Shown here piece after piece: positions 29,101 through 55,723 of a DNA stretch of 64,000 nt. Position numbers and translations under genes: made by a program. Position 1 is the stretch's first letter, and every line of letters begins with the position of its first letter. Origin of the DNA: a virus. The notes beneath the pieces are model-generated. The model was given only the letters and a program-made list of their open reading frames with translations, was not told the DNA's origin and did not search any database. The stretch lies in IMG/VR virus record IMGVR_UViG_3300032246_002986, positions 22,541 through 86,540 of that record, one strand, 5' to 3'.

Positions 29101-31599
29101 GTCTCCATCAGAAAGTTGTTTAACGGGCACCAGGTTGATTTGGCTAGCTGTGTTGTCCAGATAAAATTCGGTGGCTCTGGGAATGTCTACTACCAGGTTG
29201 TTGCTTAAATAGACCAGATTATTGACTGTGTCCACGTATTTGACAGTGGCAGTGATGTTATTGCCAAAAATATTAGTGATTTCTGTACTGGTATTGGTAT
29301 CCATACAATAGCTGTATACTTTTTGTCCTTGCACTATGTTATTAACATCATAGACACTGATGACATTCGTACCCGCTGTGCTGTAATTATAAGTTGGATC
29401 CGTGGTATATGTGGCAGCGTTTACGTTGCGACTATAGTAGCTGGTTATCCGATAGACTGTCTTCCTTACCTCTGGATCGTGATCATTAGCAAACACCACT
29501 GTCAAACCATCCAGCAATTCTATACCGTCGGTGTCGAACACACCATCTGTATTGATGGCTCCGCTGTTCAAACCTTCCACTTCCAACATAGCATTGTTTA
29601 TTTTAGTGTCAATTACTGTGACAGGACCTGCAAAGTTATCTCCGTAATTGAACAATTTAAGATCAGGCAGGAATTCGATGACAGGTCTTTTGGCCTGATC
29701 AGCACTGTCGAAAACAAAAACCTGGTTGGAAACATCTGCTGCATATTGCAAAACATCACGATGGAACCAGCGATTGTTACGGCTCCAAGGATTGCCGTCT
29801 CTGCTGCTGCGATTGATCACCATGTAATCTTTTTGTGTAGGAGCATTGAGAGTGGCATCGAAGTTACCAGCATCATATGTGGTATCACTGAAGTAGTCAC
29901 TGATGTTGTTGTTGATAATTTCCGGGGTGACTAGATCTTGCCAAGGTATCAATTTGATGCCTTTGCCCACTTGTTCTACCACGTACTCATTATCCTGGTA
30001 AGACTTGGGATAGACGTTGCCTGTGAATTTAATTTTCAGTCCGCTGGTGAATTTCACACCATTGGGACTGATATATTGATCTCTGCCCAAGATCTGGTTG
30101 ATGTTCAATTGGGCACTGCTGCCGCTATCAACCAGGTTGATCACTCCATATATCAGGGGATTATCCGCATCCTGATAGTAAAGCGTATCCACGTTGGCTG
30201 TGAGATTGGGGAATGGCAGGACCTGACCACTGCTGTTCTTGTAGCAGTACAGATGCCCATATTTGGTTCCCTGGTTGACGAAAGTCTTATATTCATTAGG
30301 CCAGCCCGTTTCATAGGTCAATTTGATTTTTCTGAAATCAGGATTGGGTAGCTGGTTGTAAAAACCCACGAATACACCTGTGTTGGTCACTGTGGCAGGT
30401 TGGCTCAATACCAGAGTGGTAGTTCCTGCCCCGCTCACCACAGTGGTACTTGGCACTATGCCCTGACCGTATATGGCCTGACCGTTGACGATTCCGGTGC
30501 TGCTGGCAACTGTGATAGTGTTTGTGCTCAACAGCGTGGCAGTGGTGCTTGCTATCAGGCCACTCAATATGGTGGGATTGCTGTTGGTGACTACACGCCA
30601 GATTCCTGTGCGTTGTTCCTGTGGCACATCTGCCCAGGTATCCGCATAAGGAACATTGATATAGATCAATTTGTTGTCAAAGCTACGCACACCATCCATA
30701 TTGTACTGGGTGATGAAATCATCGTAATTTTGATCCTGCATCTTGTTGTAGGGCACATCCACGATCATATCGATTGTCAGGATATCAGGTAGGTTTAACA
30801 GTCTATCCTGTGCATCTTTAGTAGGCACATTGAAAATCAGGGTACCCTGATCCTGTCCGTTATTGACCACGCCCAGAACATCACGTGGGTTGATGTTGCT
30901 TTGTACAGTGCTAGTGCCAGTGGTGCCTATTTCGCTCTGGATCCAGAATCGGTGCCCTGGCTGATTCAATGCAAAAGTGTATTTGCCACCTCGTTGTAAT
31001 GTTATAGTGGGATTGGTGCTGCCTGTGTAGCTGCTGATGTTATAACCGCTTTTGCCGATGCTTGCGCTCTGTACTTCAGTCTCATCGGTGGTCACATAAC
31101 TGATGCGGTCCACAGTGAAATTCTTTTCCAGAGGCACACCTGCCGCTGTGACATCCACTGTGAGCGGGCCATTGGGAACCCAATAATATTGCCTGTAATT
31201 GGTCAGCTTGTCCAGATCCACGAAGCCATCATAATTGTAGTACTGGTTAGTGAACAGGCGGCTGTGATCGTTGTTCAGGCCACCGTTGCTGCTCAACTGG
31301 TTCAGCAATTCAGGATAGCTGTATACATTGTCTATCTTGTAGGTATTGCTATTGAATTGTTTCTTTTTGACTATTACGCCTGGCTCTAACTGGTAAAATT
31401 GGCTGTAACTGTCTGCTTCCCCGATGTAATAATCGTTCTTGTCATATATGGTGCTCTGATCTTGTTGACCGATATATCCGAATATCTTTTTGAGACTGGG
31501 TTCCTGTATCAGTTGATCCACTGTGGCATTCAACAGTCTCTGATTAGTCGCAGTACGAAAAACACTGGGTAGAAATTCGGAACTTTTACGCTTTGCCAT
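17101..31599 (-). CDS. Giant (4832 aa) virion structural protein, probable baseplate wedge/scaffold
   Basis: Uninterrupted 14.5-kb ORF directly after the gp6-like gene; FG-GAP-like propeller motifs (FGTSI...VVGAP...GQVFVY), G.TTTF repeat modules, SSGTGYT...GATA module. Confidence 0.8.
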   Translation of the reverse strand: MAKRKSSEFLPSVFRTATNQRLLNATVDQLIQEPSLKKIFGYIGQQDQSTIYDKNDYYIGEADSYSQFYQLEPGVIVKKKQFNSNTYKIDNVYSYPELLNQLSSNGGLNNDHSRLFTNQYYNYDGFVDLDKLTNYRQYYWVPNGPLTVDVTAAGVPLEKNFTVDRISYVTTDETEVQSASIGKSGYNISSYTGSTNPTITLQRGGKYTFALNQPGHRFWIQSEIGTTGTSTVQSNINPRDVLGVVNNGQDQGTLIFNVPTKDAQDRLLNLPDILTIDMIVDVPYNKMQDQNYDDFITQYNMDGVRSFDNKLIYINVPYADTWADVPQEQRTGIWRVVTNSNPTILSGLIASTTATLLSTNTITVASSTGIVNGQAIYGQGIVPSTTVVSGAGTTTLVLSQPATVTNTGVFVGFYNQLPNPDFRKIKLTYETGWPNEYKTFVNQGTKYGHLYCYKNSSGQVLPFPNLTANVDTLYYQDADNPLIYGVINLVDSGSSAQLNINQILGRDQYISPNGVKFTSGLKIKFTGNVYPKSYQDNEYVVEQVGKGIKLIPWQDLVTPEIINNNISDYFSDTTYDAGNFDATLNAPTQKDYMVINRSSRDGNPWSRNNRWFHRDVLQYAADVSNQVFVFDSADQAKRPVIEFLPDLKLFNYGDNFAGPVTVIDTKINNAMLEVEGLNSGAINTDGVFDTDGIELLDGLTVVFANDHDPEVRKTVYRITSYYSRNVNAATYTTDPTYNYSTAGTNVISVYDVNNIVQGQKVYSYCMDTNTSTEITNIFGNNITATVKYVDTVNNLVYLSNNLVVDIPRATEFYLDNTASQINLVPVKQLSDGDTVVAMEGTVRQGQVYKFLNNEYIACQQKTSRPQFPLFDILDNDSISLSDTGAYPSSNFAGSYLFNYAIGTGSRDTELGFPLVYKNIGNIGDIVFENYYNTDLFNYNYNKADTVKNINMGYAAIINGYDNYKFANGWKSVTDKSKQYICKTIDVTELQTNNFDLDVKYSNSYFENNLFVYVNSKLKAQNTDYTIKTSNTSCVITFATALVPTDRVFIKIFGSSLNYKQDYSIPKNLNFNSGNEDLTQVTLGDLRNHLIEIGNNSLEMTGSAAGSNNFRDINYTNIGGKLLQHSASLRPAALMLANQDADPAKAIVFAAQSYQNFKYQFIDYLNNNQFPNSSNYKDCVDIILQNFNQNSMITSNYYYTDMVAFGNSYIINQYTIANTTYRTFNLTNSYASKPYGYQAVLIYLNDVLLVKDRDYSLVNYTLTLLDSLTIVRNDVLKVHEYTTTAGCSVPATPTKLGLYPKFIPEIRTDDTYSSGAQQVIVGHDGSITVAYGDYRDYILLEYEKRVYNNIEVSYQNNSNFDLPSVVPGAFRKTDYSLAEWTQLLATSYLTWASNNKVNVFENTLQALVKTSDLFSFNYSKATDKLFKDTVPGYWRGIYQYFYDTDRPHTHPWEMLGFSIKPTWWEAYYGPAPYTGQNLSLWKDLEAGKVYNGNPSASYIDTRYSRPGLTKIIPVDEHGNLLPPLQSIVTSYDDSTAADNWRIGDQSPQETAWRRSSDYPFAVQLAWMLARPAEYCALKYNTRDLVYNSKLDQIINVANNNRMFDFKLSSPSEYVPGLNIWIQERLTYLNLDSQSHWTDVVENSTFNLVYKMAGFTDKSYLTVVADQVSPQSSNSSILIPAENYELIVSKSAPVSRAVYSAVIIQKTASGFQINGFDKERPYFLVIPSRVTNNNYTITSGSERAIVYQDSYDSVTSYPYNTIFTSQQQVVDFLISYGRYLENQGFVFDNLLPDNATISDFTLSAKEFLFWNQQNWGSSTVISLTPAGTKLGFNSPFGIVDKITNDHNYTKVIDSDGVVLTGRDYRVYREDNYFNINLKNQQKGIHLLDIAVVQYEHCLVFDNKTVFNDVLYEEKIGSRQFRLRLDGAKTSEWNGSLYAPGFLINHVPVEQWASFTDYYKGDIVLYKNQYYAAQNFIPGNKKFTASNWYQINGDMLNKQLMPNMASQAAQFTNFYDSDSPDLNTTADRQSKHAFGFQDRQYFTDLGMDRTSQYKFYLGMIKQKGTQAVMNAFLRNSQNRLNTDLEIKEQWAVKIGSYGGISNREKIEFSLANSKVINNNYLFEFVSQTDQRSDIYNSVKYTDLLIKPKSYTLEPFTAITAPKENYASAGPVQLTDVNATVFDINKIYNISKLNTILSEGSKIWIAADSSNQWGVYRLSANGNVKVINVNQTSPTEITFITDIPHKLVVLDYVMLKNAKTGSSSTTAGVIDLSGFYRVTRATNTSFTVKITNNSTVSSGSLNANVYKLTNVRFSNVQDFTYKTPVRGWLTGEIVYIDNGDEFVVKQNKANWIYSETHSPTYSVPADQFGTSIRINTSESITVVGAPDKGFGGQVFVYNKDQSGNWREISSLDPGQGQGGVTYTSTKLYGNTGNGTYTTFILPNGASTSNTLVSVGGNIVTSANYTINSPNVLVFNSAVSNGANIFVKIFSQVSNNINVGGSGFGTNLDINDNNLVAITAPKYNSKGSVYVAIANSQAIILDQVIHYDNYNYLTTGVTSTSNANILLANTSSLTGLANGMAILGSGIPANTYINNLWPGGTNLYSIIGINNTATIAAGTRLTIYPNLAPGSTFGTDVIMSSDGSWMYVSDVVTNNVWSYKYKKVTSNVSYRIGTGATSEFAFPNDALNQSLTARDVKITVDGILQIPDVDYYKTPDADSITFYYPPANAAAIHLTYSSWFKEVGLLDQDKLESISLGTSISTNSDGSLLLVGDPDHSYTRDVIYNKNGQAYLFARSAEKYVANGNVSTFTTVSNISDPTVYVDGVVSGFTYNAANNFISLANVPDTDSIVKIDTNQLVLKNTLYPDSGQEKMNFGQKVAVCPTGCSYYVSAPNFNNTTTNNGIVYRFVDVGRQYGSVTGTVSTLSEQFTGSKISINDFIVTFTGNTIASAVNDINQANIRGVVASISSSGYIKIDSTDTTSNNKLDIRNVPVAGQELINTVGQLGLSPVKLVQKIFSPLNQDTERFGEKLNLNYWGNSLVIGATLSNNRLTTTFDNNLTSFDRFSLRYYDTIYRSGAAHLYEYQQSLTETADDIGNFAYASLISTKTISSLDRFSTGIDIGKQYIVVGAPNGKTLGNPTGVMHVYYNKTSTPNWQTIRQSKTKHDSSLITRIYLYNTTTGLLIKELPIVDIFQNKLPNSMESYIDYSVNYDPATYSNVPTTVSFAFDKKNNWGPEKVGSLWWDTNSIKYYDYTQGSTLDQFNTWSLAFPNSTVSIYEWIESDLIPSDYAAKNPLSPPLYTVNNVYSTKVVIDTKTGLPVTRYYFWVRNSLRVRPGQSRPTALEIQNTIANPKNTQDAFATVINSGSFAIYNAASLINNDTNVVVEYKTINNPKPVHVEWTLFDDGTDLGVAEEFLNKLNDSLANQDSGTRMVPDPALSLNEKYGIDLRPRQNIFKDSFTARKFYIEQLNAICTEFPIVLTRNKAVESLDYVDAEPIADTYTVKVNNNEELEFLNKNEYLIDDLALVSDDITAKGWAVYKLVSDAVGTRSWSLYKVQKFNVNNYWSYKDWYSTKYNDSIVFDYILDTERDLSNINLKVGQIIYIKNSTSNGWKIVLINNNNIELIAQQNGTIEFATSLYDQVSAGFGYQTASLEASGFASDNNIEFRHIFEVVQNQLLIAEYRSKFKNLIKIMIDTAANQHLQNDWLFKTSFVDIYHRVRGLDKLPVYLPQPETIVTDFFQEVKPFHTKLKQYVAKYDNKNSPDYANTGVSDFDLPSYYNTTSKTYRSPQLGNSLDTNLIETKAIYQPWNNNHKYQVIRIDVVSSGTGYTGSTTVKVIGDGTGATATVEILNGGVYTVNVTNMGKDYTYAQVVVYGLGTGAKVVPILGNNVARSFDTTIKFDRYTYFNNIQDWQADTTYSIDTVVVNNFEPYRVIANHTSTEKFDFTKFLPLKVKVWYPYTDYDAHDIIIYNRASYVAEINKVTTYTTDSVKTSYPIDQTNNTNSILVTNDNIIVTLNSTALTENIDYVIIRDNINSPNVVFFTAPASAGTLSINYKLASVFTSKNVFDMEYLSAYNGLWLDNACDRIWSYYSPTLGQAGKDLAQLMTGIHYGGVNVLGPVFVATPNYDIVNFDTKTYDVQTKDISGVYDTAGNYEEDTNIISSYTDSKLGLRPEDIIVLGGEYVDTYSSHAPEELVPGIMSDTLDIKVRTLAGSGGPEIKVFSTGASKGVLSYSFDPAVTGVSWPQSGIEKILVFNDNSGPKGNPQAENTDFTIDWYNKTVDFTTSPQDGDGLYFIMLGSTGVNPVYDLNLYADGAETDFDLTDNVLSDVQQAYVKVNGSKVNNWQLVNKLTNGRKILSVRFDTPPAENDFVQIHLYNLALGTRAYTEITEQTFVVNSSSPSYASDYTFYLSNPAEYVDPIGAYTIVRLNQNDLIPSQQSYYIGDAITTTFTLTDSYVKDYSIVISDDIVVVVDGVTKVDTIDYTLNKRSVTVGSVTTWYVDVVFTTAPALNSKITIGDYSSADYRIYGNNTLILSNRITLNQYDVVTAVTMGNHDVTGLYTKIFSGSTNTTTVIDLGFDNNGFESPFDNELNTVAILNSTFTLPVPVYNYNQLYITLKDPNTTGGYNLSPYSEYYLQTPTKLILSDDLGVSSNSTIVVRIFASDTRQNAVEFRIFKDIQDNTKYYAVKPNKTTYLKQDLNLTDTWMYVDDVSKLQNPDASNNLPGIVFVNGERIIYGYSDRINNRLGNLRRGTAGTGAATVHQAGTLVQDTGSFMEIPNSQDTIITADKDILLSNGYNNTRLIANGSVFTQGVMFVNPGESILTSNKTQAAFLRTS

Positions 31600-48347: not shown

Positions 48348-48863
48348 ATGCCCAGCCCCAGTAAAAACAAAGGCAATGCGTGGGAACGCGATGTTGCCAA
48401 ACATTTGACATCATTGTTCGGAGAAACATTCATAAGAGCGCCTGGATCAGGTGCTTACATAGGTGCAAGCAATCAACATCGCAAGCAGTATTTGCACGAG
48501 GGTCAGATCCGCAGTTTCAAAGGGGATATAATACCAGGTCAGAGCTTTCCCAAGTTTAATGCAGAGTGCAAAAGCTACAAGGATTTTCCCTTCCACCAAC
48601 TTTTTTCCGGATCGGTTAAACAACTGGACACCTGGTTGGACCAGCTTATGGATGCGGCCGACCCCGGCGACTTCAATATCTTGATAATGAAGTTCAATCG
48701 CAAGGGCAAGTTTGTGGCTGTGGACTTCGATGCACACAGCGATCTACCATTGTTTGTCCAACATCATTTTCTTTACGAATACAGAGAAAAACGCTGGGCC
48801 ATAATGGAGTATGATTTGTTCTGGAAACTAAATGCTGAATATGTAAAGGTTATGTGCCAATGA
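48348..48863 (+). CDS. Holliday junction resolvase-like PD-(D/E)xK nuclease
   Basis: SKNKGNAWERDVA...RAPGSGA...GDII...AECK. Confidence 0.75.
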   Translation: MPSPSKNKGNAWERDVAKHLTSLFGETFIRAPGSGAYIGASNQHRKQYLHEGQIRSFKGDIIPGQSFPKFNAECKSYKDFPFHQLFSGSVKQLDTWLDQLMDAADPGDFNILIMKFNRKGKFVAVDFDAHSDLPLFVQHHFLYEYREKRWAIMEYDLFWKLNAEYVKVMCQ

Positions 48864-49099
48864 CTATATGCACAATATTAACTGAACCACTGGCTAATTT
48901 ACAGATAGAGATTACTGCCTATAATAACAAAAAAATAAAAGTATCTACTATTAACCAGAATTTTAAAATGGAGCAGGTCCACGGAGGGGTCAACACAGGC
49001 AAAGAAGATCGTTATGTGTTGTTGGTCACTGTGGAATTGGATCAGCAGTTCATAGACAAATATAAGAAAAACGTACCTGTTTACAAGTATGAATGTTAA
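48860..49099 (+). CDS. Hypothetical protein
   Basis: ATGA overlap with resolvase stop; overlaps next gene. Confidence 0.55.
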   Translation: MTICTILTEPLANLQIEITAYNNKKIKVSTINQNFKMEQVHGGVNTGKEDRYVLLVTVELDQQFIDKYKKNVPVYKYEC

Positions 49100-50321
49100 G
49101 ACGCGACATCAGACTATAAGCCAGCCGGTGTGGCAAAGTCTATTCAACAGGTCAGTGAGACCCCATTACACAGTTGCTGGTAGACGTTATGATACAAAGC
49201 TACAAGCCATACAAGAAACAGAAAAAATACGCAAAGCGACAGGAGATAGCATCTGGAGCATAATAAAATTCCACTGTTTCGATGAATTAACAGATCATGA
49301 TTTCAGCATAGAACCTGCAGAAAGCTATCAGGAACTGTGCATACTAAGAGCGCATCAGTTGAGAGCAAAATACCAGAGCATCAGGCTATGGTATAGTGGC
49401 GGAGCAGACAGCCACACAACACTAAGAAGTTTCCATCTGGCCGGATTATCCATAGATGAAATAGTCATATTGCGTAACACCAGCATAGGCACAGATGCGC
49501 CTAGCAACACAGAAACCACCAATCTGACAATTCCCAGCATAGCCAGGATACAAGGATGGTTTCCTGGTGCCAAGATCACCAGTCTGGAATATGTGATAGA
49601 TGTCAATATTAAAAACCATATAGATGACAAAGATTGGCAAGCCAGACTCAGCAAGCTGGTATTACAGAGTCCTGTGACCAGGAATATGGCCAACAGTTTC
49701 GATCTGGACAACAGTCTAATGATAGCTTACAACAAAACCAGCCATTGCGAATTGGTGGGCGAACCCAAGCCCAGTCTGATAAAAAAACAGGGCCACTGGT
49801 ACACTTATATCGTGGACAATCAAATAGACACTAGCCTGATGTTACCAAATCTGGAATTGTTCCACTTCAGTCCAGATCTGCCACAACTATATGTGAAACA
49901 ATGTCATATGCTGAAGAATCAATATGAGCTGCTGATGACAGATAAACCCGACAATTACAGCCAGACATTGGACAAGGATTTCACACAAAAAAATATTTTT
50001 TTGCAGAGATACAACGAATGGGACACGGATAATCACAGCCACAAGCATCATCAATATGCAAAAAGATTCGATCACAATGGCGACTTCAACACCACAGTGT
50101 ATGCCATGCAGCGGTTCCAAAATGATGAATATTTCCACGATTACATAACAAATTTCCGTGAGGTTTTATTCCAAGAAGTTTATGATCCTCTAGCGGATTA
50201 TTTCCATAATGGCAGATTATTCCGCACTCCAATAGGTATGATCAGTCGCTTCTGGAATCTCAGCAAGCCAGGTAGTGCCAGTTGCGATGAATTATGGCCA
50301 TTGGGCTTCGGCAACTACTAA
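49089..50321 (+). CDS. PP-loop (adenine nucleotide alpha-hydrolase-like) protein
   Basis: IRLWYSGGADSH (SGGxDS). Confidence 0.6.
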   Translation: MNVKTRHQTISQPVWQSLFNRSVRPHYTVAGRRYDTKLQAIQETEKIRKATGDSIWSIIKFHCFDELTDHDFSIEPAESYQELCILRAHQLRAKYQSIRLWYSGGADSHTTLRSFHLAGLSIDEIVILRNTSIGTDAPSNTETTNLTIPSIARIQGWFPGAKITSLEYVIDVNIKNHIDDKDWQARLSKLVLQSPVTRNMANSFDLDNSLMIAYNKTSHCELVGEPKPSLIKKQGHWYTYIVDNQIDTSLMLPNLELFHFSPDLPQLYVKQCHMLKNQYELLMTDKPDNYSQTLDKDFTQKNIFLQRYNEWDTDNHSHKHHQYAKRFDHNGDFNTTVYAMQRFQNDEYFHDYITNFREVLFQEVYDPLADYFHNGRLFRTPIGMISRFWNLSKPGSASCDELWPLGFGNY

Positions 50322-50329
50322 GTAAATCT

Positions 50330-50430
50330 GTAGCGCCGACAAGACGCCGGAATAAAACACGACGCGAGGAATACTCCTTTATCAGGCATAGCCCAGAGAC
50401 GCCGTTCCGTATGCAGCATCACTGCTAACT
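50330..50430 (+). ncRNA. Candidate small structured RNA (unassigned; strand uncertain)
   Basis: GC-richer intergenic patch; CGGAAT/GTTCCG helix enclosing AGGA/TCCT and GGC/GCC hairpins; GCAG/CTGC hairpin; AGACGCCG twice. Confidence 0.3.
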
Positions 50431-50443
50431 CCCCATAAAATTC

Positions 50444-50472
50444 TAGACAGGACTTGCGATTTCCTGTATATT
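50444..50472 (+). promoter_or_regulatory. Sigma70-type promoter for the TTT cassette
   Basis: TAGACA, 17 nt, TATATT; followed by SD AAGGAG (50481-50486) and ATG 50492. Confidence 0.55.
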
Positions 50473-50491
50473 ATCAGAACAAGGAGTGATT

Positions 50492-51409
50492 ATGACTAAA
50501 TTTTATAGATTATTTGTTGTGGCGATCCTGACAATGGGATTGCCCATCTCAGCAACTTATGCACAGACCAAACAGCCTAAATTGACGATAGTACAAGGTG
50601 AAGCACCTGCCAGCAGCGGCTTGGGTATGCAGAATCTAGTGATAGAGGAACTACGCAAGGGTTATGACGAGATCAATATCATCAGCGTCAGCAACTGTGA
50701 CAAGGCAGCACAGGTCTACAACAGCATCACAGATACACCAGCAGTGTATATCCACACCAGTGAATACCAGTGGCTGAAAGAAGCAGGTATGCACACCTGT
50801 GGTGTCAAGATGTCACACGACAACATCTGGATGAATGTGGAGATGGCACAGGGTTTCTGTACCAAAGGTCCGGGTCCAGTGACATTCGAGGACTTCAAAA
50901 AGAGCAAGACTTTTGGAAGCATCGTGCCTTTCAGTCTCACAGACACAATGGTGGACCAGATCAACCGGGAACTTAAAACAGACATTAAAAAGATACCTTA
51001 TAATGGCGGCAGCGGTCTGGCACTGACTGGTATCCTGAACGGAGAGATAGATTATGCTCCCATTGCCTTGTTCCGTGTGTTGGATATGATGGAAGACAAG
51101 CGTGTGGCCTGCTTCGCCAAATACGGTCAAAGCAACGACAAATTGCCCAGCATACGCAATTTCATTCCCGGATTCTCCCTGGGAGATTACGTGTGGAACG
51201 TAGCTGGTGCAGCCAAGAATATGAATGCAGAACAGTTGAAGTATCTGCGAGATTTACATCAGGCCAGCTTGAAAAAAGGCACAGTACTACGCAACAGCCT
51301 GGACAAAGGAATGTGGGATGTAGCACAAGGGGACGAAAAAGAACTTTGGCGCAGATATAAAATCCAAGAAGACATTTTTGTAAGCTCGCTAGCGGCAGCT
51401 AAGAAATGA
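50492..51409 (+). CDS. Periplasmic substrate-binding protein, TctC/Bug-like (divergent)
   Basis: Signal peptide (MTKFYRLFVVAILTMGLPISATYA); KIPYNGGSGLALTGILNGEID resembles Bug/TctC PYkG...a..ll.G.vD; adjacent to TctA-like gene. Confidence 0.65.
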   Translation: MTKFYRLFVVAILTMGLPISATYAQTKQPKLTIVQGEAPASSGLGMQNLVIEELRKGYDEINIISVSNCDKAAQVYNSITDTPAVYIHTSEYQWLKEAGMHTCGVKMSHDNIWMNVEMAQGFCTKGPGPVTFEDFKKSKTFGSIVPFSLTDTMVDQINRELKTDIKKIPYNGGSGLALTGILNGEIDYAPIALFRVLDMMEDKRVACFAKYGQSNDKLPSIRNFIPGFSLGDYVWNVAGAAKNMNAEQLKYLRDLHQASLKKGTVLRNSLDKGMWDVAQGDEKELWRRYKIQEDIFVSSLAAAKK

Positions 51410-52752
51410 TAGGTTTTACATCTGGCAACATTCTGGTCATGACCAGCGGTATATTTGTGGGTCTTGTCAGTGGAATGTTGCCAGGGTTGACGATGATAAC
51501 GCCCACGCTGGTGCTGCTGCCCTGGTTATTCCAGTTGACAGCAGCCCAGATAATACTCTGGTATGCCACTGTACTGATAACACATCAGTTCATAGGCAGC
51601 GTAATAGCCACTTATTACAGTGTTCCCAATGACGACGCACATTGGCCAGCAGTGCTAGAAGGTCACGCCTTGTACAAACGTGGATCAGGACCAGAGGCCA
51701 TACAGGCAGCAGCTTTCGCTCATGTGATCACTATGATAATGAGTTTGCTACTGATGCTGGCCATAAGCGATGTAAGCAATCAGATAGCTTTGTTTTTCGA
51801 TACCAGGATACAAGCGGCAATTATAATACTAGTGATAACTGGTGTATTTGCTGTAAACAGCGAACCTGTCTGGGTAAAATCACTGATGTTGATATGCGGC
51901 ACAGCTTTGGGTTTCCTGGGAGAGTTGAACAGGCAATACCTGCACTGGGATATAAGTTATACAGATATAAATTTCAGCGATGGTATACCTGCTGTTCCCC
52001 TGATAGTGGGCATATTTGCCCTGCCCAACTGCATCAAAAACAATCAACAACTGCTGTCCACCGTCAATGTAGCACAGTTGCAAACCAAATTTTCAGATTT
52101 TAGGTACTATTTTACCAGCATATTTCACGGTTTGCTGGGTTTCATTTTCGGGTTGACACCGATGCTGACCAACGATGTTGCTGCAAATGTCAGTTATAAT
52201 CTGCAGAAATGGTGGCGAAATTTCCGACAAAAATATCGTCCTGGAGATGTCAGCTGCCTAGTAGCAGCAGAAAGTGCAGCCAATAGTGGGGCTGTAATCA
52301 GTCTAATGCCGCTGTTATTATTAGGGATTCCCATAACAGCTAGCGAGGCAATGATATACAGTGTACTAAACAGCAAAGGGTATGCTTTCAGTTTGAGTAA
52401 TTACGATTCCTATCTGATTCCTGAAATATTGGGCTGTCTGATCCTAGTAGGAATAGTGAATTATATCATAAGCGGTCCTCTCAGTGAGATGTTTGGAAAA
52501 TTGTATCTGTTCCTGAAAGATAGAGCGTTATCGGTGATTTTACTGCTGTTGGCAGCGAGTGTGTTGTATCAGGGATATAATCTATATTCATTGAAAGAGT
52601 ATTTGACTGTCATGCTTTCAGGCTTTATAATAGGTTATAGTTGTAAAAAATATAACTTTTATGTACTGATTTTTTGTTTCTTGATGGCTTCTCATACGCT
52701 GGATATTTTCTTGCGTATGTGGGTTTTCGCTAAAATTTATATACAAGGATAA
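51406..52752 (+). CDS. Tripartite tricarboxylate transporter large membrane subunit, TctA-like
   Basis: Polytopic; GLVSGMLPGL, LVAAESAANS..SLMPLLLLGIP. Confidence 0.8.
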   Translation: MIGFTSGNILVMTSGIFVGLVSGMLPGLTMITPTLVLLPWLFQLTAAQIILWYATVLITHQFIGSVIATYYSVPNDDAHWPAVLEGHALYKRGSGPEAIQAAAFAHVITMIMSLLLMLAISDVSNQIALFFDTRIQAAIIILVITGVFAVNSEPVWVKSLMLICGTALGFLGELNRQYLHWDISYTDINFSDGIPAVPLIVGIFALPNCIKNNQQLLSTVNVAQLQTKFSDFRYYFTSIFHGLLGFIFGLTPMLTNDVAANVSYNLQKWWRNFRQKYRPGDVSCLVAAESAANSGAVISLMPLLLLGIPITASEAMIYSVLNSKGYAFSLSNYDSYLIPEILGCLILVGIVNYIISGPLSEMFGKLYLFLKDRALSVILLLLAASVLYQGYNLYSLKEYLTVMLSGFIIGYSCKKYNFYVLIFCFLMASHTLDIFLRMWVFAKIYIQG

Positions 52753-52756
52753 AATA

Positions 52757-53482
52757 ATGTTTTTGAACGATAGAGAACAGGGTTATAAAGACGCAGGGAT
52801 CTATCATTTTGATCCCTACGCAGATACAAATGATATGCCGCAAATCGGTACATCACTGGATGCAGATATCTGCGATTTCATATACCAGCATATCAGCAAG
52901 CGTTTTACAGATTTCATTCCCCAAATGACCAGGAACAGTATGCAGCGCATATTGAAAACAGACATCAGCGGAGAAGAAGAAAGACTGGATATCCTGGAAT
53001 ATCAGACACAACTGGACTACAGCATTGTGATGAACAAGGAAGATCCTGGATTCTATATGCTGCAAATGAAATCCACAGATGAAATATACGATACTATAAA
53101 ACAAAAAGTGGAACAGCAGTATAGCATCAGATTGAACGACAGGGCTAAAAACAGCCTGGGTTATAGCAGTGCTATAGGATTCGCCTGGCAGGAACCTGGC
53201 CAGACCACTGTCAATCACATAGACAATTATCTTACGGATTATGACAAAAGATCCAGCAGATATCAAGATCCGGGCCATAGGAAGTTGATATGTTTTCTGG
53301 AGGATTGGCAGCCCGGACAATTTTTCATGATGGGCAACAAAGTCAGCCAAAAATGGCAAAAAGGACAAGCTGTGGTACTCAAATGGGGTATGCCCCATAG
53401 CACAGCCAATCTGAGCAATAGAGTACGAATCACAATGATGTTAAAGGTAATGGCAGATGAAAATCCAAATTTACCCTCTTAA
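52757..53482 (+). CDS. Putative 2OG-Fe(II)/cupin-fold oxygenase
   Basis: PGQ...HID, FLEDWQPGQ, W..G, PHSTAN...R.T (HxD...H triad plus Arg). Confidence 0.6.
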   Translation: MFLNDREQGYKDAGIYHFDPYADTNDMPQIGTSLDADICDFIYQHISKRFTDFIPQMTRNSMQRILKTDISGEEERLDILEYQTQLDYSIVMNKEDPGFYMLQMKSTDEIYDTIKQKVEQQYSIRLNDRAKNSLGYSSAIGFAWQEPGQTTVNHIDNYLTDYDKRSSRYQDPGHRKLICFLEDWQPGQFFMMGNKVSQKWQKGQAVVLKWGMPHSTANLSNRVRITMMLKVMADENPNLPS

Positions 53483-53669
53483 ACACGTGGAACTCACGCT
53501 GGATCGAGATAGTATTGTGTTTTTCGAGCCAAGCGGCTATGGGCAATATATAGTGGAAGATACAGATCACAACAACCTGGTAGGCAGTTATAGGCTAGAA
53601 AAAGGCACGAAAATCACTTGTCTAAACGCAAGTATCAAACAAATGACAGTATCTATAGAAATTTTGTAA
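53457..53669 (+). CDS. Hypothetical protein
   Basis: 70-aa ORF overlapping the oxygenase end. Confidence 0.5.
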   Translation: MKIQIYPLKHVELTLDRDSIVFFEPSGYGQYIVEDTDHNNLVGSYRLEKGTKITCLNASIKQMTVSIEIL

Positions 53670-53739
53670 AAACAATATATAACATACAAGCATCGGCATC
53701 ATAGGCTTCATAGGCTATATAGTCCCTTATAATCTATAC

Positions 53740-54030
53740 ATTTGAAGGTTGGCAGCACCCCGACATTGCTCGCTATTGGACACCGCACAGCCACGCGATA
53801 GGCTAAATGATGACAGCTCTGAGAAAAAGCAACTGTCGTGTAGACGATTTCAGTCTGACTGGGGATCGTATGCATCCGTTGGATTCAGCAGGATTAAAGG
53901 GGTACCGGCCAACCGCCCCGCTAGTAAAATAGTTTCGCAGTTAAGATATGGATAAGGACTCAACAAAAGTTCTTGTACTGATCCTGGAGACAGGATCAGT
54001 ATGGCTTCAGATCTAACAAAAAGTTCCTAA
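53740..54030 (+). ncRNA. Candidate structured ncRNA (about 290 nt, unassigned)
   Basis: TATAAT at 53728-53733; several nested hairpins; 7-nt long-range complement GGTTGGC/GCCAACC; perfect 11-bp stem with GAGA tetraloop at 53976-54001. Confidence 0.55.
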
Positions 54031-54040
54031 GATTAATATT

Positions 54041-54073
54041 AAAAAAAAGTTAACGAACGAAGTGAAGTTAACT
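54041..54073 (-). terminator. Probable intrinsic terminator of the minus-strand hub/rSAM operon
   Basis: AGTTAAC-12 nt-GTTAACT stem followed by T7-8 on minus strand, 8 nt after stop 54082; adjacent 8-bp hairpin TGGTTGCT/AGCAACCA (54073-54092). Confidence 0.5.
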
Positions 54074-54081
54074 GGTTGCTG

Positions 54082-54456
54082 TCAAGCAACCATACCATAA
54101 CCCATAACATTATGATACCAGATATAGAATGGATCAGGAATGGAAAAAGACCAACGACCTGGTTTAGTGATGGCGTGAGACTGATTGCTGGATAAATGAC
54201 CCAGATGAGGTAAAATCTCCAGATCATTTATGGAAATTTTTTCTATCAGAACAGTTGCATTTAAACTTAGGTTTTTTATTTCAATTTCTATGGGTGTGAG
54301 CAGATCCCAATGGGTCTGGCTTATCTTGTCTGTTATTTCCTGTCCATTGACAGTCAATCTGTATTTGCCTTCAGCTGCCAGATGTATGTCAAGACACAGC
54401 TGATCGGCGGTATCAATAGCCAAGACGTCTGAGAAATTCTGTATATCTGGGTTCAT
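54082..54456 (-). CDS. Hypothetical protein
   Basis: 124-aa ORF overlapping the upstream rSAM gene; PFYIWYH...GYG C-terminus. Confidence 0.6.
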   Translation of the reverse strand: MNPDIQNFSDVLAIDTADQLCLDIHLAAEGKYRLTVNGQEITDKISQTHWDLLTPIEIEIKNLSLNATVLIEKISINDLEILPHLGHLSSNQSHAITKPGRWSFSIPDPFYIWYHNVMGYGMVA

Positions 54457-55723
54457 AATCTGTTATCCTGTTGTCCCTGATCTTTTCGAAAGCCTTTAAA
54501 AATCTGGGTAGTTGTTTGCGGTATACATCTGCGTCTGCTGGTGTTTGATAACCGTCTATGAAATCTTTGTATTCGCATATCACATTGGCTATGCTCTGTG
54601 ATATCCTGTGGGCATTTCGTGTATTCGGCAGCACGGTTCTTTTGAGGTCATGTTTGATGATCACCTGCTGTAACTTGTGGCTTATTTCCTTCCTGATATC
54701 ATCAGGCAATAATTCCATCCTCAACACAGCTGGATAGGTCAGGATGTTGCAGCTTTCTGCACTCACATCATTGGCTATCATATATTCTGCCAATAGGTCC
54801 AAATGATAGATGCTGAAGATATTGGGTGTGATACGCAGGCTGACATATAGATTGGTTTTGGCACGTAGTTGCAAGAACTGATCCAGTATGCTCAATACGC
54901 TGCTGATGTCGCTGGGATATCTGATATAATCATTGAGAGAGGTCACTGTTTCTATGCTGCATCCCAGATGGAATTCTTTGAATTCTCTGGCATATCTTTC
55001 TATATTGCTGTTGTACACAGTGCAGTTGGTGGTGGTTCCCACGATGATGTTTTTGGCTATTCCTGCATCTATCAGTGCATCACACAGCAGGTAAAAGCTC
55101 TTGTCATATAAAGTTTCGCCACCCAGGAAATGAATATATTTGAGTTTATCCAGTTTTTTCAATTCTGTTACAAATTTATCCAGCAGATATGGATTCCTGG
55201 TCCAGCTGGTATACACAGCTGGTTGGGCAAATAGATCAGGTTCCAATTGATTTAGTTTGAGATAATCTGCGGCCAATTTGCTGCTGGCTTCGGGATAACA
55301 CATCACACAAGCACTGTTGCAGGTGTTTCCCAGATCTATCTGCAGATCTACAGGTTGATAATCACTGTGTCCTGCATTGTCTGCACTGTGATGAAACATA
55401 TCCAGGTGTGGGCTGCCTCTCAGAGACAGCTCGAAGTTGTCTGCTGTCACTGTGCTTTTCAACAGTTGCCGCCAGCGTCCATTCAACTTGTTATACTGAT
55501 CTTGTTGATGACATTTTTTGCAGATGTCGGGTTTTGCACCTGTCAGCAGATCTGACCTGATAGCACACATATCATCGCTGTTGTAGAAATCCATGATGTT
55601 GTGTGTGGCTATGTTGTAACCATTTGTTTTATCATCTATGCCCCAGCGACAGATCTTGTAATCGCCGTTATAGGTCAGTCTGATGTGTATCCACGGGCTG
55701 TTACAGAAACTGTCTCGCAACAT
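54413..55723 (-). CDS. Radical SAM protein with N-terminal SPASM/twitch-like domain
   Basis: CNSACVMC, FLGGET, TTN; N-terminal CNSPW...C...CKKCH. Confidence 0.88.
   Translation of the reverse strand: MLRDSFCNSPWIHIRLTYNGDYKICRWGIDDKTNGYNIATHNIMDFYNSDDMCAIRSDLLTGAKPDICKKCHQQDQYNKLNGRWRQLLKSTVTADNFELSLRGSPHLDMFHHSADNAGHSDYQPVDLQIDLGNTCNSACVMCYPEASSKLAADYLKLNQLEPDLFAQPAVYTSWTRNPYLLDKFVTELKKLDKLKYIHFLGGETLYDKSFYLLCDALIDAGIAKNIIVGTTTNCTVYNSNIERYAREFKEFHLGCSIETVTSLNDYIRYPSDISSVLSILDQFLQLRAKTNLYVSLRITPNIFSIYHLDLLAEYMIANDVSAESCNILTYPAVLRMELLPDDIRKEISHKLQQVIIKHDLKRTVLPNTRNAHRISQSIANVICEYKDFIDGYQTPADADVYRKQLPRFLKAFEKIRDNRITDYEPRYTEFLRRLGY

What the first reader, a model, noticed from the sequence alone, without database searches (positions are those of the whole stretch)
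53728..54030. Candidate novel ~290-nt structured ncRNA with long-range pairing and GNRA-capped helix
Seen: the largest gap in a gene-dense window. After TATAAT (53728-33) come helices CTATTG/CGATAG (53773-78/53796-801), GACAG/CTGTC with inner GCT/AGC (53812-37), a long hairpin with several G-U pairs (53838-75) and GGGG-CGG/CCG-CCCC (53899-919). GCCAACC (53908-14) in that last hairpin is the exact complement of 5' GGTTGGC (53747-53), giving a pseudoknot or alternative fold. A perfect 11-bp stem with a GAGA loop (53976-54001) is flanked by near-direct repeats AACAAAA(A)GTTC. G-U pairs and the GNRA loop favour a + strand RNA. It lacks tRNA, tmRNA and RNase P hallmarks that I can recognise. Inference: an undescribed phage RNA (ribozyme-like, scaffold or replication primer).
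Basis: partly seen in the sequence, partly recalled or inferred. Interest (0 to 1): 0.75.

Follow-up and report, generated by a model that had tools for sequence, protein, structure and literature searches.

The report
Twin-box knotted RNA in phage
The gene-free gap in this uncultured freshwater T4-like giant phage encodes a real, intricately folded non-coding RNA of about 350 bases from a widespread family of phages and bacterial mobile elements; it carries the same short word twice, and its job is unknown.

Summary
Window ~53745-54092 (+ strand), with a conserved upstream box from ~53693, is a discrete conserved element. Relatives match only this ~390-nt stretch, not its flanks.

Of 127 sources searched, 101 matched a profile of the element, giving 88 distinct sequences.

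Covariation supports helices H3, H4, P5, H6, H7, H8 and H9 and two pseudoknots. G-U cells outnumber A-C cells 272 to 78, which points to the + strand. The same loop pairs with GUUGG at 53878-82 instead.

The twin words are identical within one RNA in 85 of 88 sequences, and 25 different words occur.

Rfam 15 does not detect the window. A model built from the window's clade scores 66.7 bits on a Polynucleobacter locus that Rfam calls Methylobacterium-1, RF01712.

Bacterial copies often lie beside site-specific recombinase genes. Function is unknown and no expression data were found. This scan has noted the same family before on other DNA, as the 'twin-box structured RNA'.

The parts
53693..53727 (+). 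Conserved upstream box: three phased GGC(A/T) repeats (53695-97, 53704-06, 53713-15; 9-nt spacing), then GGCTATATAGTCCC. Candidate promoter of a phage-specific type.
   Evidence: ATAGTCCC and the GGC boxes are invariant or nearly so in the 7-sequence alignment A2. Phased AGGCA repeats are seen in other clade members. No sigma-70-like site is listed here. The promoter role is inferred, not shown.
53751..53774 (+). H1 hairpin: GGCAGC / GCU(C)GCU, with the conserved loop ACCCCGACAUU.
   Evidence: Read by eye. The stem changes to CUGACA/UGUCAG, CGCGAC/GUCGC, CAGC/GCUG, UAGC/GCUA and CACG/CGUG while the loop stays the same. Present only in the window's clade; not counted formally.
53784..53797 (+). 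H2 short hairpin: CGC / GCG.
   Evidence: Read by eye: CGCA/UGCG, CGUU/AACG, CGUA/UACG and AGU/GCU in relatives. It corresponds to the first hairpin of the Rfam RF01712 model. Not counted formally.
53812..53837 (+). H3: GACAG / CUGUC, enclosing the 18-nt block GCUCUGAGAAAAAGCAAC.
   Evidence: helix 1: 95.3% of cells paired, and 4 of 5 pairs change on both sides (for example AU 23, GC 15, UA 15, CG 14). The 18-mer was the probe, so its invariance is ascertainment.
53840..53873 (+). H4: long hairpin (53840-50 / 53863-73) with a 12-nt loop.
   Evidence: helix 2: 9 pairs, all with changes on both sides, 84.2% of cells paired. This helix was in the model that made the alignment, so the count leans towards it.
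53854..53946 (+). Pseudoknot B: the H4 loop UCUGACUG (53854-61) pairs with CAGUUAAGA (53938-46), with one bulged A.
   Evidence: Alignment-free test. At least 6 contiguous pairs in 53 of 70 RNAs and at least 7 in 46 of 70, against 25% and 9.3% of 4754 cross-pairings. There are 37 distinct 5'-strand words. In the window only 6 contiguous pairs are scored.
53878..53913 (+). Pseudoknot A: GUUGG (53878-82) pairs with CCAAC (53909-13) in the loop of P5.
   Evidence: Found by RNAalifold on A3. helix 3: 91.1% of cells paired and 4 of 5 pairs change on both sides. These pairs were not part of the model that made the alignment.
53899..53919 (+). P5: GGGG / CCCC stem closing the loop that forms pseudoknot A.
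   Evidence: helix 4: 94.1% of cells paired and all 4 pairs change on both sides (for example GC 47, AU 9, CG 3, UA 1).
53921..53932 (+). H6: short hairpin, CUA / UAG.
   Evidence: helix 5: 3 pairs, all with changes on both sides, 89.3% of cells paired.
53947..53972 (+). Twin-box module 1: UAUGGAU, then hairpin GGAC/GUUC whose loop carries ACUC + AACAAAA + G.
   Evidence: The layout xA-CUC-N7-G in module 1 and xA-UCU-N7-A in module 2 recurs in 85 of 88 RNAs, with the same N7 word in both modules.
53973..54004 (+). H7: 11-bp stem (53976-86 / 53991-54001) with a GAGA loop, extended by three G-U pairs (53973-75 / 54002-04).
   Evidence: helix 1: 14 pairs, 10 with changes on both sides, 88.0% of cells paired. 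In the nearest relative an A-U pair becomes G-C and the loop GAGA becomes GCAA.
54000..54026 (+). Twin-box module 2: UAUGGCU, then AUCU + AACAAAA + AG.
   Evidence: There are 25 distinct 7-mers among the 85 RNAs. A 7-nt direct repeat at this spacing occurs in 81 of 88 RNAs, against a mean of 15.3 in shuffles.
54049..54072 (+). H8: GUUAAC / GUUAAC around the GA-rich loop GAACGAAGUGAA.
   Evidence: helix 2: 6 pairs, all with changes on both sides, 89.6% of cells paired. The two inner pairs (helix 3) are weak, at 55%.
54073..54092 (+). H9: terminal hairpin UGGUUGC / GCAACCA. It overlaps the last 11 nt of the - strand ORF 54082-54456.
   Evidence: helix 4: 7 pairs, all with changes on both sides, 98.9% of cells paired. 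No U run follows it in the window, and the scan lists no terminator-like site there.

Best explanation
Window ~53745-54092 is the gene for a stand-alone, + strand, highly structured non-coding RNA of about 350 nt. It probably has its own promoter-like box upstream, from ~53693.

Shown:
- It is a discrete conserved unit whose flanks differ between genomes.
- It has a 5' core of three hairpins locked by two pseudoknots.
- It has a 3' domain in which a GNRA-capped helix separates two modules that display the same 7-8-nt word.
- Two terminal hairpins follow.
- The family occurs in many uncultured aquatic T4-like phages and in integrated elements of Alpha- and Betaproteobacteria.

Inferred:
- The RNA acts in trans as a folded scaffold.
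- Its two identical, exposed words engage two copies, or two equivalent sites, of one partner.
- That partner co-evolves with the word. It could be a dimeric protein or a nucleic acid that is not encoded nearby.
- The RNA serves the mobile element during host takeover or competition.

The partner and the benefit are unknown.
For: Discrete unit:
- blastn homology of five relatives at 70-79% identity is confined to window ~53703-54095.
- The nearest relative is about 96% identical in the gap but 86% over 4.4 kb.

Spread:
- 101 of 127 sources matched the profile, giving 88 distinct sequences in 47 clusters at 85% identity.

Structure:
- 5' core: 26 pairs, 89.7% of cells paired against 61.5% in shuffles; covariation 0.653 against 0.184 (0 of 500 shuffles reach it); slid controls at most 0.126.
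- 3' domain: 29 pairs, 88.7% against 62.7%; covariation 0.642 against 0.199.
- Pseudoknot A was not in the model that made the alignment and is still 91.1% paired.
- Pseudoknot B: at least 7 contiguous pairs in 46 of 70 RNAs, against 9.3% of cross-pairings.

Strand: 272 G-U cells against 78 A-C cells. The H7 loop changes GAGA to GCAA.

Not coding: 1-nt indels occur inside the core, and the spacing of the twin words is not a multiple of 3.

Independence from neighbours:
- The next gene lies on the opposite strand in 39 of 80 loci that have one.
- Upstream genes differ: a GIY-YIG gene, a PDDEXK gene, a transporter cassette, or integrases.

Twin words: identical in 85 of 88 RNAs with 25 different words. 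They are also present in bacterial copies, for example CUUCAAGAU twice and CUUUGAAAU twice.
Against: - No transcript evidence: no RNA run is on record for this sequence, so transcription, ends and strand rest on sequence logic.
- The family was collected with an exact 18-mer (and first with a 21-mer), so these blocks look invariant by ascertainment and divergent members are missed.
- Alignments A5 and A7 were fitted to the nested helices, which inflates their pair counts.
- The window's own pseudoknot B has only 6 contiguous pairs plus 2 more beyond a bulge.
- No partner for the twin words was found. There is no complement inside the RNA or within the loci, and no enrichment of the word in the window (4 matches against 2.87 expected).
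- The words are not free. Most fit NNAURAU, which suits a protein site or a structural motif as well as a guide.
- The 3' model found only 42 of 70 sources.
- H9 overlaps the end of a - strand ORF, and the element sits between convergent genes in the window, so some hairpins could serve as transcript ends.
Confidence: 0.55

Rival explanations
1. A guide RNA. The twin words base-pair with DNA or RNA and direct an enzyme of the mobile element, such as the GIY-YIG nuclease in phages or the recombinase in integrated elements, to a programmable site.
For: - The GIY-YIG-only protein (about 141 aa, PF19835) is the immediate upstream gene on the same strand in 61 of 77 loci that have an upstream ORF. 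Rearranged loci L013 and L068 keep the pair together.
- In 6 of 10 bacterial loci a tyrosine or serine recombinase gene lies within 3 kb upstream on the same strand.
- The twin words vary between lineages while their flanks stay fixed.
Against: - The window's 86.5-kb record has no GIY-YIG homologue. A PDDEXK gene follows gp46 instead, with a 5-kb cassette before the RNA.
- Cultured phages with the nuclease (Melnitz-3 at 68% identity, P-HM2, S-RIM8) have no such RNA.
- The neighbouring enzymes belong to unrelated families.
- No complementary target lies within the loci.
- The words fit a consensus rather than being free.
- From recall, not from a call: a 136-aa GIY-YIG enzyme of T4 (endonuclease II) works without RNA.
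Confidence: 0.08
2. An origin-associated or primer RNA. A structured transcript at the border between the replication and structural modules forms a stable hybrid that starts DNA synthesis.
For: - The element sits between the gp47/gp46 recombination genes and the gp26-like baseplate gene.
- From recall, not tested: T4 has an origin near uvsY and genes 25/26.
- The H8 loop holds a CGAAG mini-hairpin word, and GA-rich pentamer repeats occur in some clades.
Against: - Cumulative GC skew shows no turn at 54 kb.
- Bacterial copies lie in integrated elements next to recombinases, with no replication gene identified.
- Two pseudoknots with G-U covariation point to a folded RNA, not to a hybrid-forming stretch.
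Confidence: 0.07
3. A cis-acting transcript-end element: a 3' UTR, insulator or stabiliser that ends or protects the convergent transcripts meeting in this gap.
For: - In the window the element lies between convergent genes.
- H9 overlaps the stop of the - strand ORF.
- On the - strand, the H8 stem is followed by a run of eight T.
- In most loci the RNA follows a gene on the same strand.
Against: - The terminator scan lists no site within 53670-54081, and no U run follows H7 or H9 on the + strand.
- About 350 nt with two covarying pseudoknots and co-varying twin words is far more than a transcript end needs.
- The same unit follows unrelated genes in phages and bacteria, and it has a conserved upstream box of its own.
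Confidence: 0.1
4. A DNA-level site, such as iterons, a recombination site or a packaging site. On this reading the direct repeats bind a protein on double-stranded DNA and the hairpins are incidental.
For: - Direct repeats that co-vary are typical of protein-binding iterons.
- Upstream there are phased GGC boxes.
- The 12-mer of the H8 loop occurs in both orientations in bacterial copies.
Against: - Compensatory changes occur in 49 of 55 counted pairs, and G-U cells outnumber A-C cells 272 to 78. Neither is expected for duplex DNA sites.
- The two repeats always differ in the same way, CUC against UCU and G against A, which is odd for two equal DNA sites.
Confidence: 0.05

Closest known systems
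Methylobacterium-1 RNA motif (Rfam RF01712; Weinberg et al. 2010, PMC2864571, where I saw only the table row)
   Same: The 103-position model has an AAAG lead, a first hairpin, a 5-bp hairpin, a long hairpin and an ACCGuAGUU tail. These match our H2, H3, H4 and CCGUUGG. The Polynucleobacter locus L156 scores 49.9 bits against a cut-off of 40. Model R1, built from the window's clade, scores 66.7 bits on overlapping coordinates of the same locus. The paper gives no function for it.
   Different: The Rfam model stops before P5, so it lacks both pseudoknots and the whole 3' domain with the twin words. It has a shorter H3 loop; L156 shows an insertion there. It does not detect the window at E<=10, nor any of 15 phage loci. 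Of 9 bacterial-genome loci searched, only L156 reached the gathering score; a search at E<=1 over 8 of them found no further match.
Polynucleobacter-1 RNA motif (Rfam RF01718; Weinberg et al. 2010, table row only). Named as closest by earlier notes of this scan.
   Same: It comes from freshwater and estuarine Burkholderiales, the same habitat and hosts as several of our bacterial copies. In the genome that holds L161 it scores 84.7 bits at another locus. That match lies 52 nt 5' of a weak match to R1 on the same strand (10.7 bits, E 0.006 in 3 kb). It may therefore describe the 5' domain of divergent members.
   Different: It hits neither the window, nor 15 phage loci, nor 8 bacterial loci of the family. 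The adjacent R1 match is weak and lacks the 18-mer. I did not test whether that locus has twin words.
Large orphan structured RNAs carried by phages and prophages (GOLLD, ROOL, OLE, raiA; named from recall and from the abstracts listed)
   Same: They are long, with many helices and pseudoknots. They are carried by mobile elements, have no known function, and were found by comparative genomics.
   Different: There is no sequence or model match. This RNA is smaller, at about 350-400 nt. It has the twin co-varying words, which as far as I recall are not described for those RNAs.
Antisense immunity RNAs of P1/P7 (c4) and P4 (CI), recalled and not tested
   Same: In those systems, short words repeated in one transcript differ between related elements and so set specificity.
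   Different: There, the repeats are complementary to a third word in the same region. Here no complement exists in the RNA or nearby. Those RNAs are also far smaller and have no pseudoknotted core.

Membership tests
Rfam RF01712 Methylobacterium-1 | Covariance-model score at or above the gathering score of 40 bits | tested here: not met
   No match in the window at gathering score or at E<=10 over 53500-54300. No match in 15 phage loci at E<=10.
Rfam RF01712 Methylobacterium-1 | Order of elements: hairpin, 5-bp hairpin, long hairpin, ACCGuAGUU tail | tested here: met
   H2, H3, H4 and CCGUUGG lie in this order at 53784-53882, matching the model structure printed. The comparison was by inspection, not by score.
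Rfam RF01712 Methylobacterium-1 | Homology to a sequence that the family model accepts | tested here: met
   R1, built from 14 phage sequences including the window, hits L156 1937-2091 at 66.7 bits (E 8e-18). This overlaps the RF01712 match at 1906-2014. The shared 18-mer probe contributes part of that score.
Rfam RF01718 Polynucleobacter-1 | Covariance-model score at or above the gathering score of 37 bits | tested here: not met
   No match in the window, in 15 phage loci or in 8 bacterial family loci at E<=1.
Rfam RF01718 Polynucleobacter-1 | The same RNA as our family in some genome | tested here: inconclusive
   An 84.7-bit match in G002 lies 52 nt upstream of a 10.7-bit R1 match on the same strand.
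Twin-box structured RNA (working name from earlier notes of this scan) | Same 7-8-nt word twice, about 50-60 nt apart, flanking a capped helix, with CUC/UCU prefixes | tested here: met
   ACUC-AACAAAA-G at 53958-69 and AUCU-AACAAAA-A at 54011-22, on either side of H7. 85 of 88 family members show this pattern.
Twin-box structured RNA (working name from earlier notes of this scan) | Pseudoknotted 5' core | tested here: met
   Pseudoknots A and B.
Intrinsic terminator | G+C-rich stem-loop followed by a U run | tested here: not met
   The scan lists no terminator-like site between 53670 and 54081. The sequences after H7 and H9 have no U run on the + strand.
tRNA / tmRNA | Cloverleaf, or tRNA-like domain with a tag frame | tested here: not met
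   ARAGORN finds none in the window. There are no Rfam tRNA or tmRNA matches.
Riboswitch or other 5' leader | Lies upstream of a gene on the same strand | tested here: not met
   The next gene in the window is on the - strand. The next gene is on the opposite strand in 39 of 80 loci.
Nuclease-RNA system (GIY-YIG plus guide) | The nuclease gene is present together with the RNA | tested here: not met
   No homologue in the window's 86.5-kb record (the record is only about 25% complete by CheckV). Three cultured phages with the nuclease lack the RNA.
IS110-type bridge RNA | Adjacent DEDD/IS110-type recombinase gene | tested here: not met
   Pfam scans of 13 different window proteins, nine around the gap, show a TctA transporter, radical SAM, a baseplate protein, SbcC/SbcD-like proteins, a PDDEXK nuclease and a portal, but no transposase family.

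The most novel reading that the evidence does not exclude
The twin words are a programmable recognition device. A knotted scaffold RNA carried by phages and integrative elements presents two copies of one guide word. With them it brings two copies of a nucleic-acid target, or a dimeric effector that reads the word, into a fixed geometry. Each lineage thereby gets its own specificity for attack, exclusion or recombination.
Probability: 0.08. Interest if true: 0.9.

Novelty: new variant of a known kind. Interest (0 to 1): 0.6.

Why it matters
Large, intricately folded RNAs with no known job are rare, and in the past they have led to new biochemistry.

It also rides in integrated elements of Proteobacteria. 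Even so, the standard catalogue detects almost none of the copies searched here and describes only a fragment of the fold.

The full architecture given here provides a testable model. It comprises two pseudoknots, a GNRA-capped helix and two co-varying identical words.

The twin words are the lead. They behave like a specificity element, but they have no visible partner. Finding what reads them would show what this RNA does for a phage.

Tried and rejected
Expression. The look-up of sequencing runs listed no RNA holder. The listed holders were all recorded as DNA except one of unknown kind, and most are labelled freshwater or lake metagenomes. Read laying was not run, because contigs of DNA runs cannot show a transcript.

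Cultured phages. blastn of the window's element, of two other family members and of a 44-nt core against 50,697 phage records gave no real match. The 31 records are short chance matches inside coding genes.

Partner for the twin words.
- No complement of at least 8 of 9 positions at a consistent place inside the RNA.
- No 7/7 complement or third copy at a consistent position in 45 representatives.
- No positional enrichment of complements in 807 kb of loci: 9 on the + strand against about 12 expected.
- No enrichment of AACAAAAG in the window.

Pairing of box 1 with box 2. This is possible only where the word is palindromic (UCAUGA types), so it is not general. Judged by eye.

Small peptides starting at the UAUG of each module. 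Rejected, because the frame between AUG and the word differs between the modules and the spacing is not a multiple of 3.

Coding potential. The longest stop-free run in any frame has a median of 58.5 codons over 360 nt. There are 1-nt indels in the core.

Nuclease partner. See the rival explanations.

Group I intron with a homing-endonuclease ORF. Rejected, because in many loci no same-strand exon follows and Rfam gives no intron match.

Column-wise count of pseudoknot B. It failed on both the MAFFT and the model alignment because loop lengths vary. I replaced it with the alignment-free test.

Earlier survey.

Searches for print. 'Methylobacterium-1' is found in 3 papers, and only the 2010 paper concerns the RNA. 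Searches found nothing on this RNA.
Full report
WHAT IS THERE

The window is part of an 86.5-kb IMG/VR virus record that CheckV rates about 25% complete. The record carries T4-type genes:
- SbcD/SbcC-like gp47 and gp46,
- a gp26-like baseplate hub,
- a gp20 portal.

The gap 53670-54081 lies between convergent genes. On the + side are a 241-aa and a 70-aa ORF. On the - side are a 124-aa ORF and a radical-SAM/SPASM gene. It is the largest gap between long ORFs in the window.

Both strands fold better than shuffles, with z -2.83 for + and -2.44 for -. Energy alone therefore decides nothing. ARAGORN finds no tRNA or tmRNA. Rfam 15 gives no match at gathering score in the whole window, and only two chance matches at E<=10 in 53500-54300.

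A DISCRETE CONSERVED ELEMENT

One close relative (IMGVR_UViG_3300010885_053380) is 86% identical over 4.4 kb but about 96% identical in the gap. Its few differences include:
- two compensatory pair changes, GACAG/CUGUC to GACGG/CCGUC and an A-U to G-C change in the 11-bp stem;
- a loop change from GAGA to GCAA, which keeps a GNRA loop only on the + strand.

A 21-nt probe from the window found five further viral contigs. Their similarity of 70-79% is confined to window ~53703-54095; the flanks do not align.

Of 127 sources, 101 matched a profile of the element at E<=1e-3. This gave 88 distinct sequences in 47 clusters at 85% identity.

Both probes select for their own words, so those words are invariant by construction and more divergent members are missed.

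STRUCTURE

I built a covariance model of the 5' core (R1) from 14 sequences of the window's clade. It matched all 70 of 70 sources given to it, one match each.

On that alignment, 26 pairs in five helices are 89.7% paired, against 61.5% in shuffles.
- 463 cells change on both sides, against 143.7 in shuffles.
- The covariation score is 0.653 against 0.184, and 0 of 500 shuffles reach it.
- Slid controls reach at most 0.126.

H3, H4, P5 and H6 were in the model, so their counts lean towards it. Pseudoknot A was not in the model. It pairs GUUGG (53878-82) with CCAAC (53909-13), and RNAalifold first found it on a plain MAFFT alignment. It is 91.1% paired, and four of its five pairs change on both sides.

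Pseudoknot B joins the H4 loop (53854-61) to 53938-46. It could not be counted by columns. An alignment-free test gave these results:
- at least 6 contiguous pairs in 53 of 70 RNAs,
- at least 7 contiguous pairs in 46 of 70 RNAs,
- 37 different 5'-strand words,
- 25% and 9.3% respectively in 4754 cross-pairings.

Some misses come from a wrongly cut 3' segment in members with a long H6 insert. By eye, L129, L041 and L063 do have the pairing.

A second model for the 3' domain (R2) matched 42 of 70 sources at E<=0.01. Its 29 pairs are 88.7% paired against 62.7% in shuffles, with covariation 0.642 against 0.199. H9 is 98.9% paired, and all 7 of its pairs change on both sides.

Over both alignments there are 272 G-U cells and 78 A-C cells, so the + strand is the RNA strand.

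Right:
- H3,
- H4,
- the outer stem of the GGGG/CCCC hairpin,
- the GNRA-capped stem,
- the direct repeats,
- the + strand.

Wrong or unsupported:
- TATAAT is not conserved and is not picked up by the promoter scan.
- CTATTG/CGATAG does not covary, by eye.
- The long-range GGTTGGC/GCCAACC pairing loses its 5' strand in relatives, where it reads GGTCT in L004-L007.

Within the window's clade GGUUG is fairly conserved, so an alternative pairing cannot be excluded there. Nothing covaries to support it, however.

Upstream, a box with phased GGC repeats and GGCTATATAGTCCC (53693-53727) is conserved and may be the promoter. This is inference.

THE TWIN WORDS

In 85 of 88 RNAs the same 7-8-nt word occurs twice, about 50-60 nt apart, on either side of H7. 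The first copy has the frame xA-CUC-word-G and the second xA-UCU-word-A. There are 25 different words, including AACAAAA, ACAUGAU, GAAUAAT-type words, AAAUGAA and UCGAGAU.

The three RNAs without the pattern are two cut by contig ends and one with a 6-nt version. A 7-nt repeat at this spacing occurs in 81 of 88 RNAs, against a mean of 15.3 in shuffles.

Each word follows a UAUGRC block that closes a helix: pseudoknot B for module 1 and H7 for module 2. In many members the word lies in a hairpin loop (by eye).

Bacterial copies show the same thing, for example CUUCAAGAU twice in L140 and L159 and CUUUGAAAU twice in L138.

I found no complement to the word in the RNA, in the loci, or enriched in the window. 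Most words fit NNAURAU, so they are constrained. What reads them is unknown.

CONTEXT

In the phage loci the order is gp47, gp46, often a small ORF, a GIY-YIG-only protein of about 141 aa (PF19835), the RNA, and then usually a gp26-like gene on the other strand.
- The GIY-YIG gene is the immediate upstream gene on the same strand in 61 of 77 loci that have an upstream ORF.
- It is immediately upstream on the opposite strand in 2 more.
- Rearranged loci L013 and L068 keep the pair together.

The window, however, has a PDDEXK nuclease after gp46, then a 5-kb transporter cassette. Its record has no GIY-YIG homologue.

Cultured phages with the nuclease lack the RNA, both by pattern and by model R1. 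These are Melnitz-3 (68% identity), P-HM2 and S-RIM8. The nuclease therefore looks like a fixed neighbour in one lineage rather than a partner.

BACTERIAL COPIES AND THE LINK TO RFAM

The 18-mer found 40 stretches in 185,579 species genomes, where about 35 are expected by chance. About ten of them show extended homology. All ten that I passed to R1 matched it at 46.6-69.2 bits.

One of them, on a 279-kb contig of a Polynucleobacter MAG, is called Methylobacterium-1 by Rfam (RF01712; 49.9 bits against a cut-off of 40). Its model covers the equivalents of H2, H3, H4 and the CCGUUGG tail, and stops before P5. So the 5' third of the family has been in Rfam since 2010 as an sRNA candidate with no function given. 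In PMC2864571 I saw only the table row.

Earlier notes of this scan name Polynucleobacter-1 (RF01718) as the closest family. In my data:
- RF01718 hits none of the family loci.
- It does hit another locus in the genome that holds L161, at 84.7 bits.
- That hit lies 52 nt 5' of a weak R1 match.

It may describe the 5' domain of divergent members. I leave this open.

A tyrosine integrase, a large serine recombinase or a resolvase gene lies within 3 kb upstream on the same strand in 6 of 10 bacterial loci. In a sample of 121 genomes of the Polynucleobacter MAG's family, only that MAG had matches: two copies 44 kb apart in opposite orientation. Only 25 candidates per genome were scored, so this count is a floor. 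The patchy spread and the neighbours point to mobile-element cargo.

READING

Shown: a discrete, conserved, + strand structured RNA gene with two pseudoknots and twin co-varying words. It occurs in T4-like phages and in integrated elements, and the standard catalogue barely detects it.

Inferred: it is transcribed from its own promoter and acts in trans, and the twin words bind two copies or two sites of one co-evolving partner.

I could not test expression, because no RNA holder is listed.

Guide-RNA, origin-RNA, transcript-end and DNA-site readings are kept as rivals with low weight. The reasons are given in the rival explanations.

This scan has met the same family several times on other DNA and reached the same main points. 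I re-derived those points here before reading the notes. After reading them I followed their RF01718 lead.

Noticed in passing
window 48348-48863 and 49089-53669: After gp46 the window has a PDDEXK_15 nuclease where most relatives have a GIY-YIG-only nuclease. A roughly 5-kb cassette follows and separates it from the RNA. The cassette includes a TctA-family transporter (51406-52752).
   Followed up: partly
window 17101-31599 (- strand): An uninterrupted ORF of 4832 aa, followed by ORFs of 1124 and 1668 aa. These are very large proteins for a phage. I did not examine them.
   Followed up: no
window 54049-54072; also L083, L017, L010 and others: The H8 loop is built of GA-rich pentamers (GAACGAAGUGAA, GAGCGAUAGCGAA). 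One clade has four or five such units in a row (GAGUGAAGUGAAACGAAACGA). In L073-type members the region forms a GNRA-capped stem flanked by GA-rich strands, which may be a k-turn-like or protein-binding motif.
   Followed up: partly
L174 and L175 (G001, contig 27, 65937-66091 + and 110273-110428 -): One Polynucleobacter MAG has two copies of the RNA 44 kb apart, pointing towards each other. The first follows a tyrosine integrase. The second has an HNH endonuclease ORF upstream on its own strand. Whether they bound one element was not examined.
   Followed up: partly
L140, L159, L148 (MAGs labelled Sphingomonadaceae, Bacteroidetes and Dechloromonas): Nearly identical copies of the RNA and of about 110 nt upstream occur in MAGs assigned to different phyla or classes. 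This suggests recent transfer on one mobile element, or mis-binning of short contigs.
   Followed up: no
window 54413-55723 and 54082-54456 (- strand): A radical-SAM/SPASM gene and a 124-aa ORF with no family lie between the RNA and the gp26-like gene. Most relatives lack this insert.
   Followed up: no
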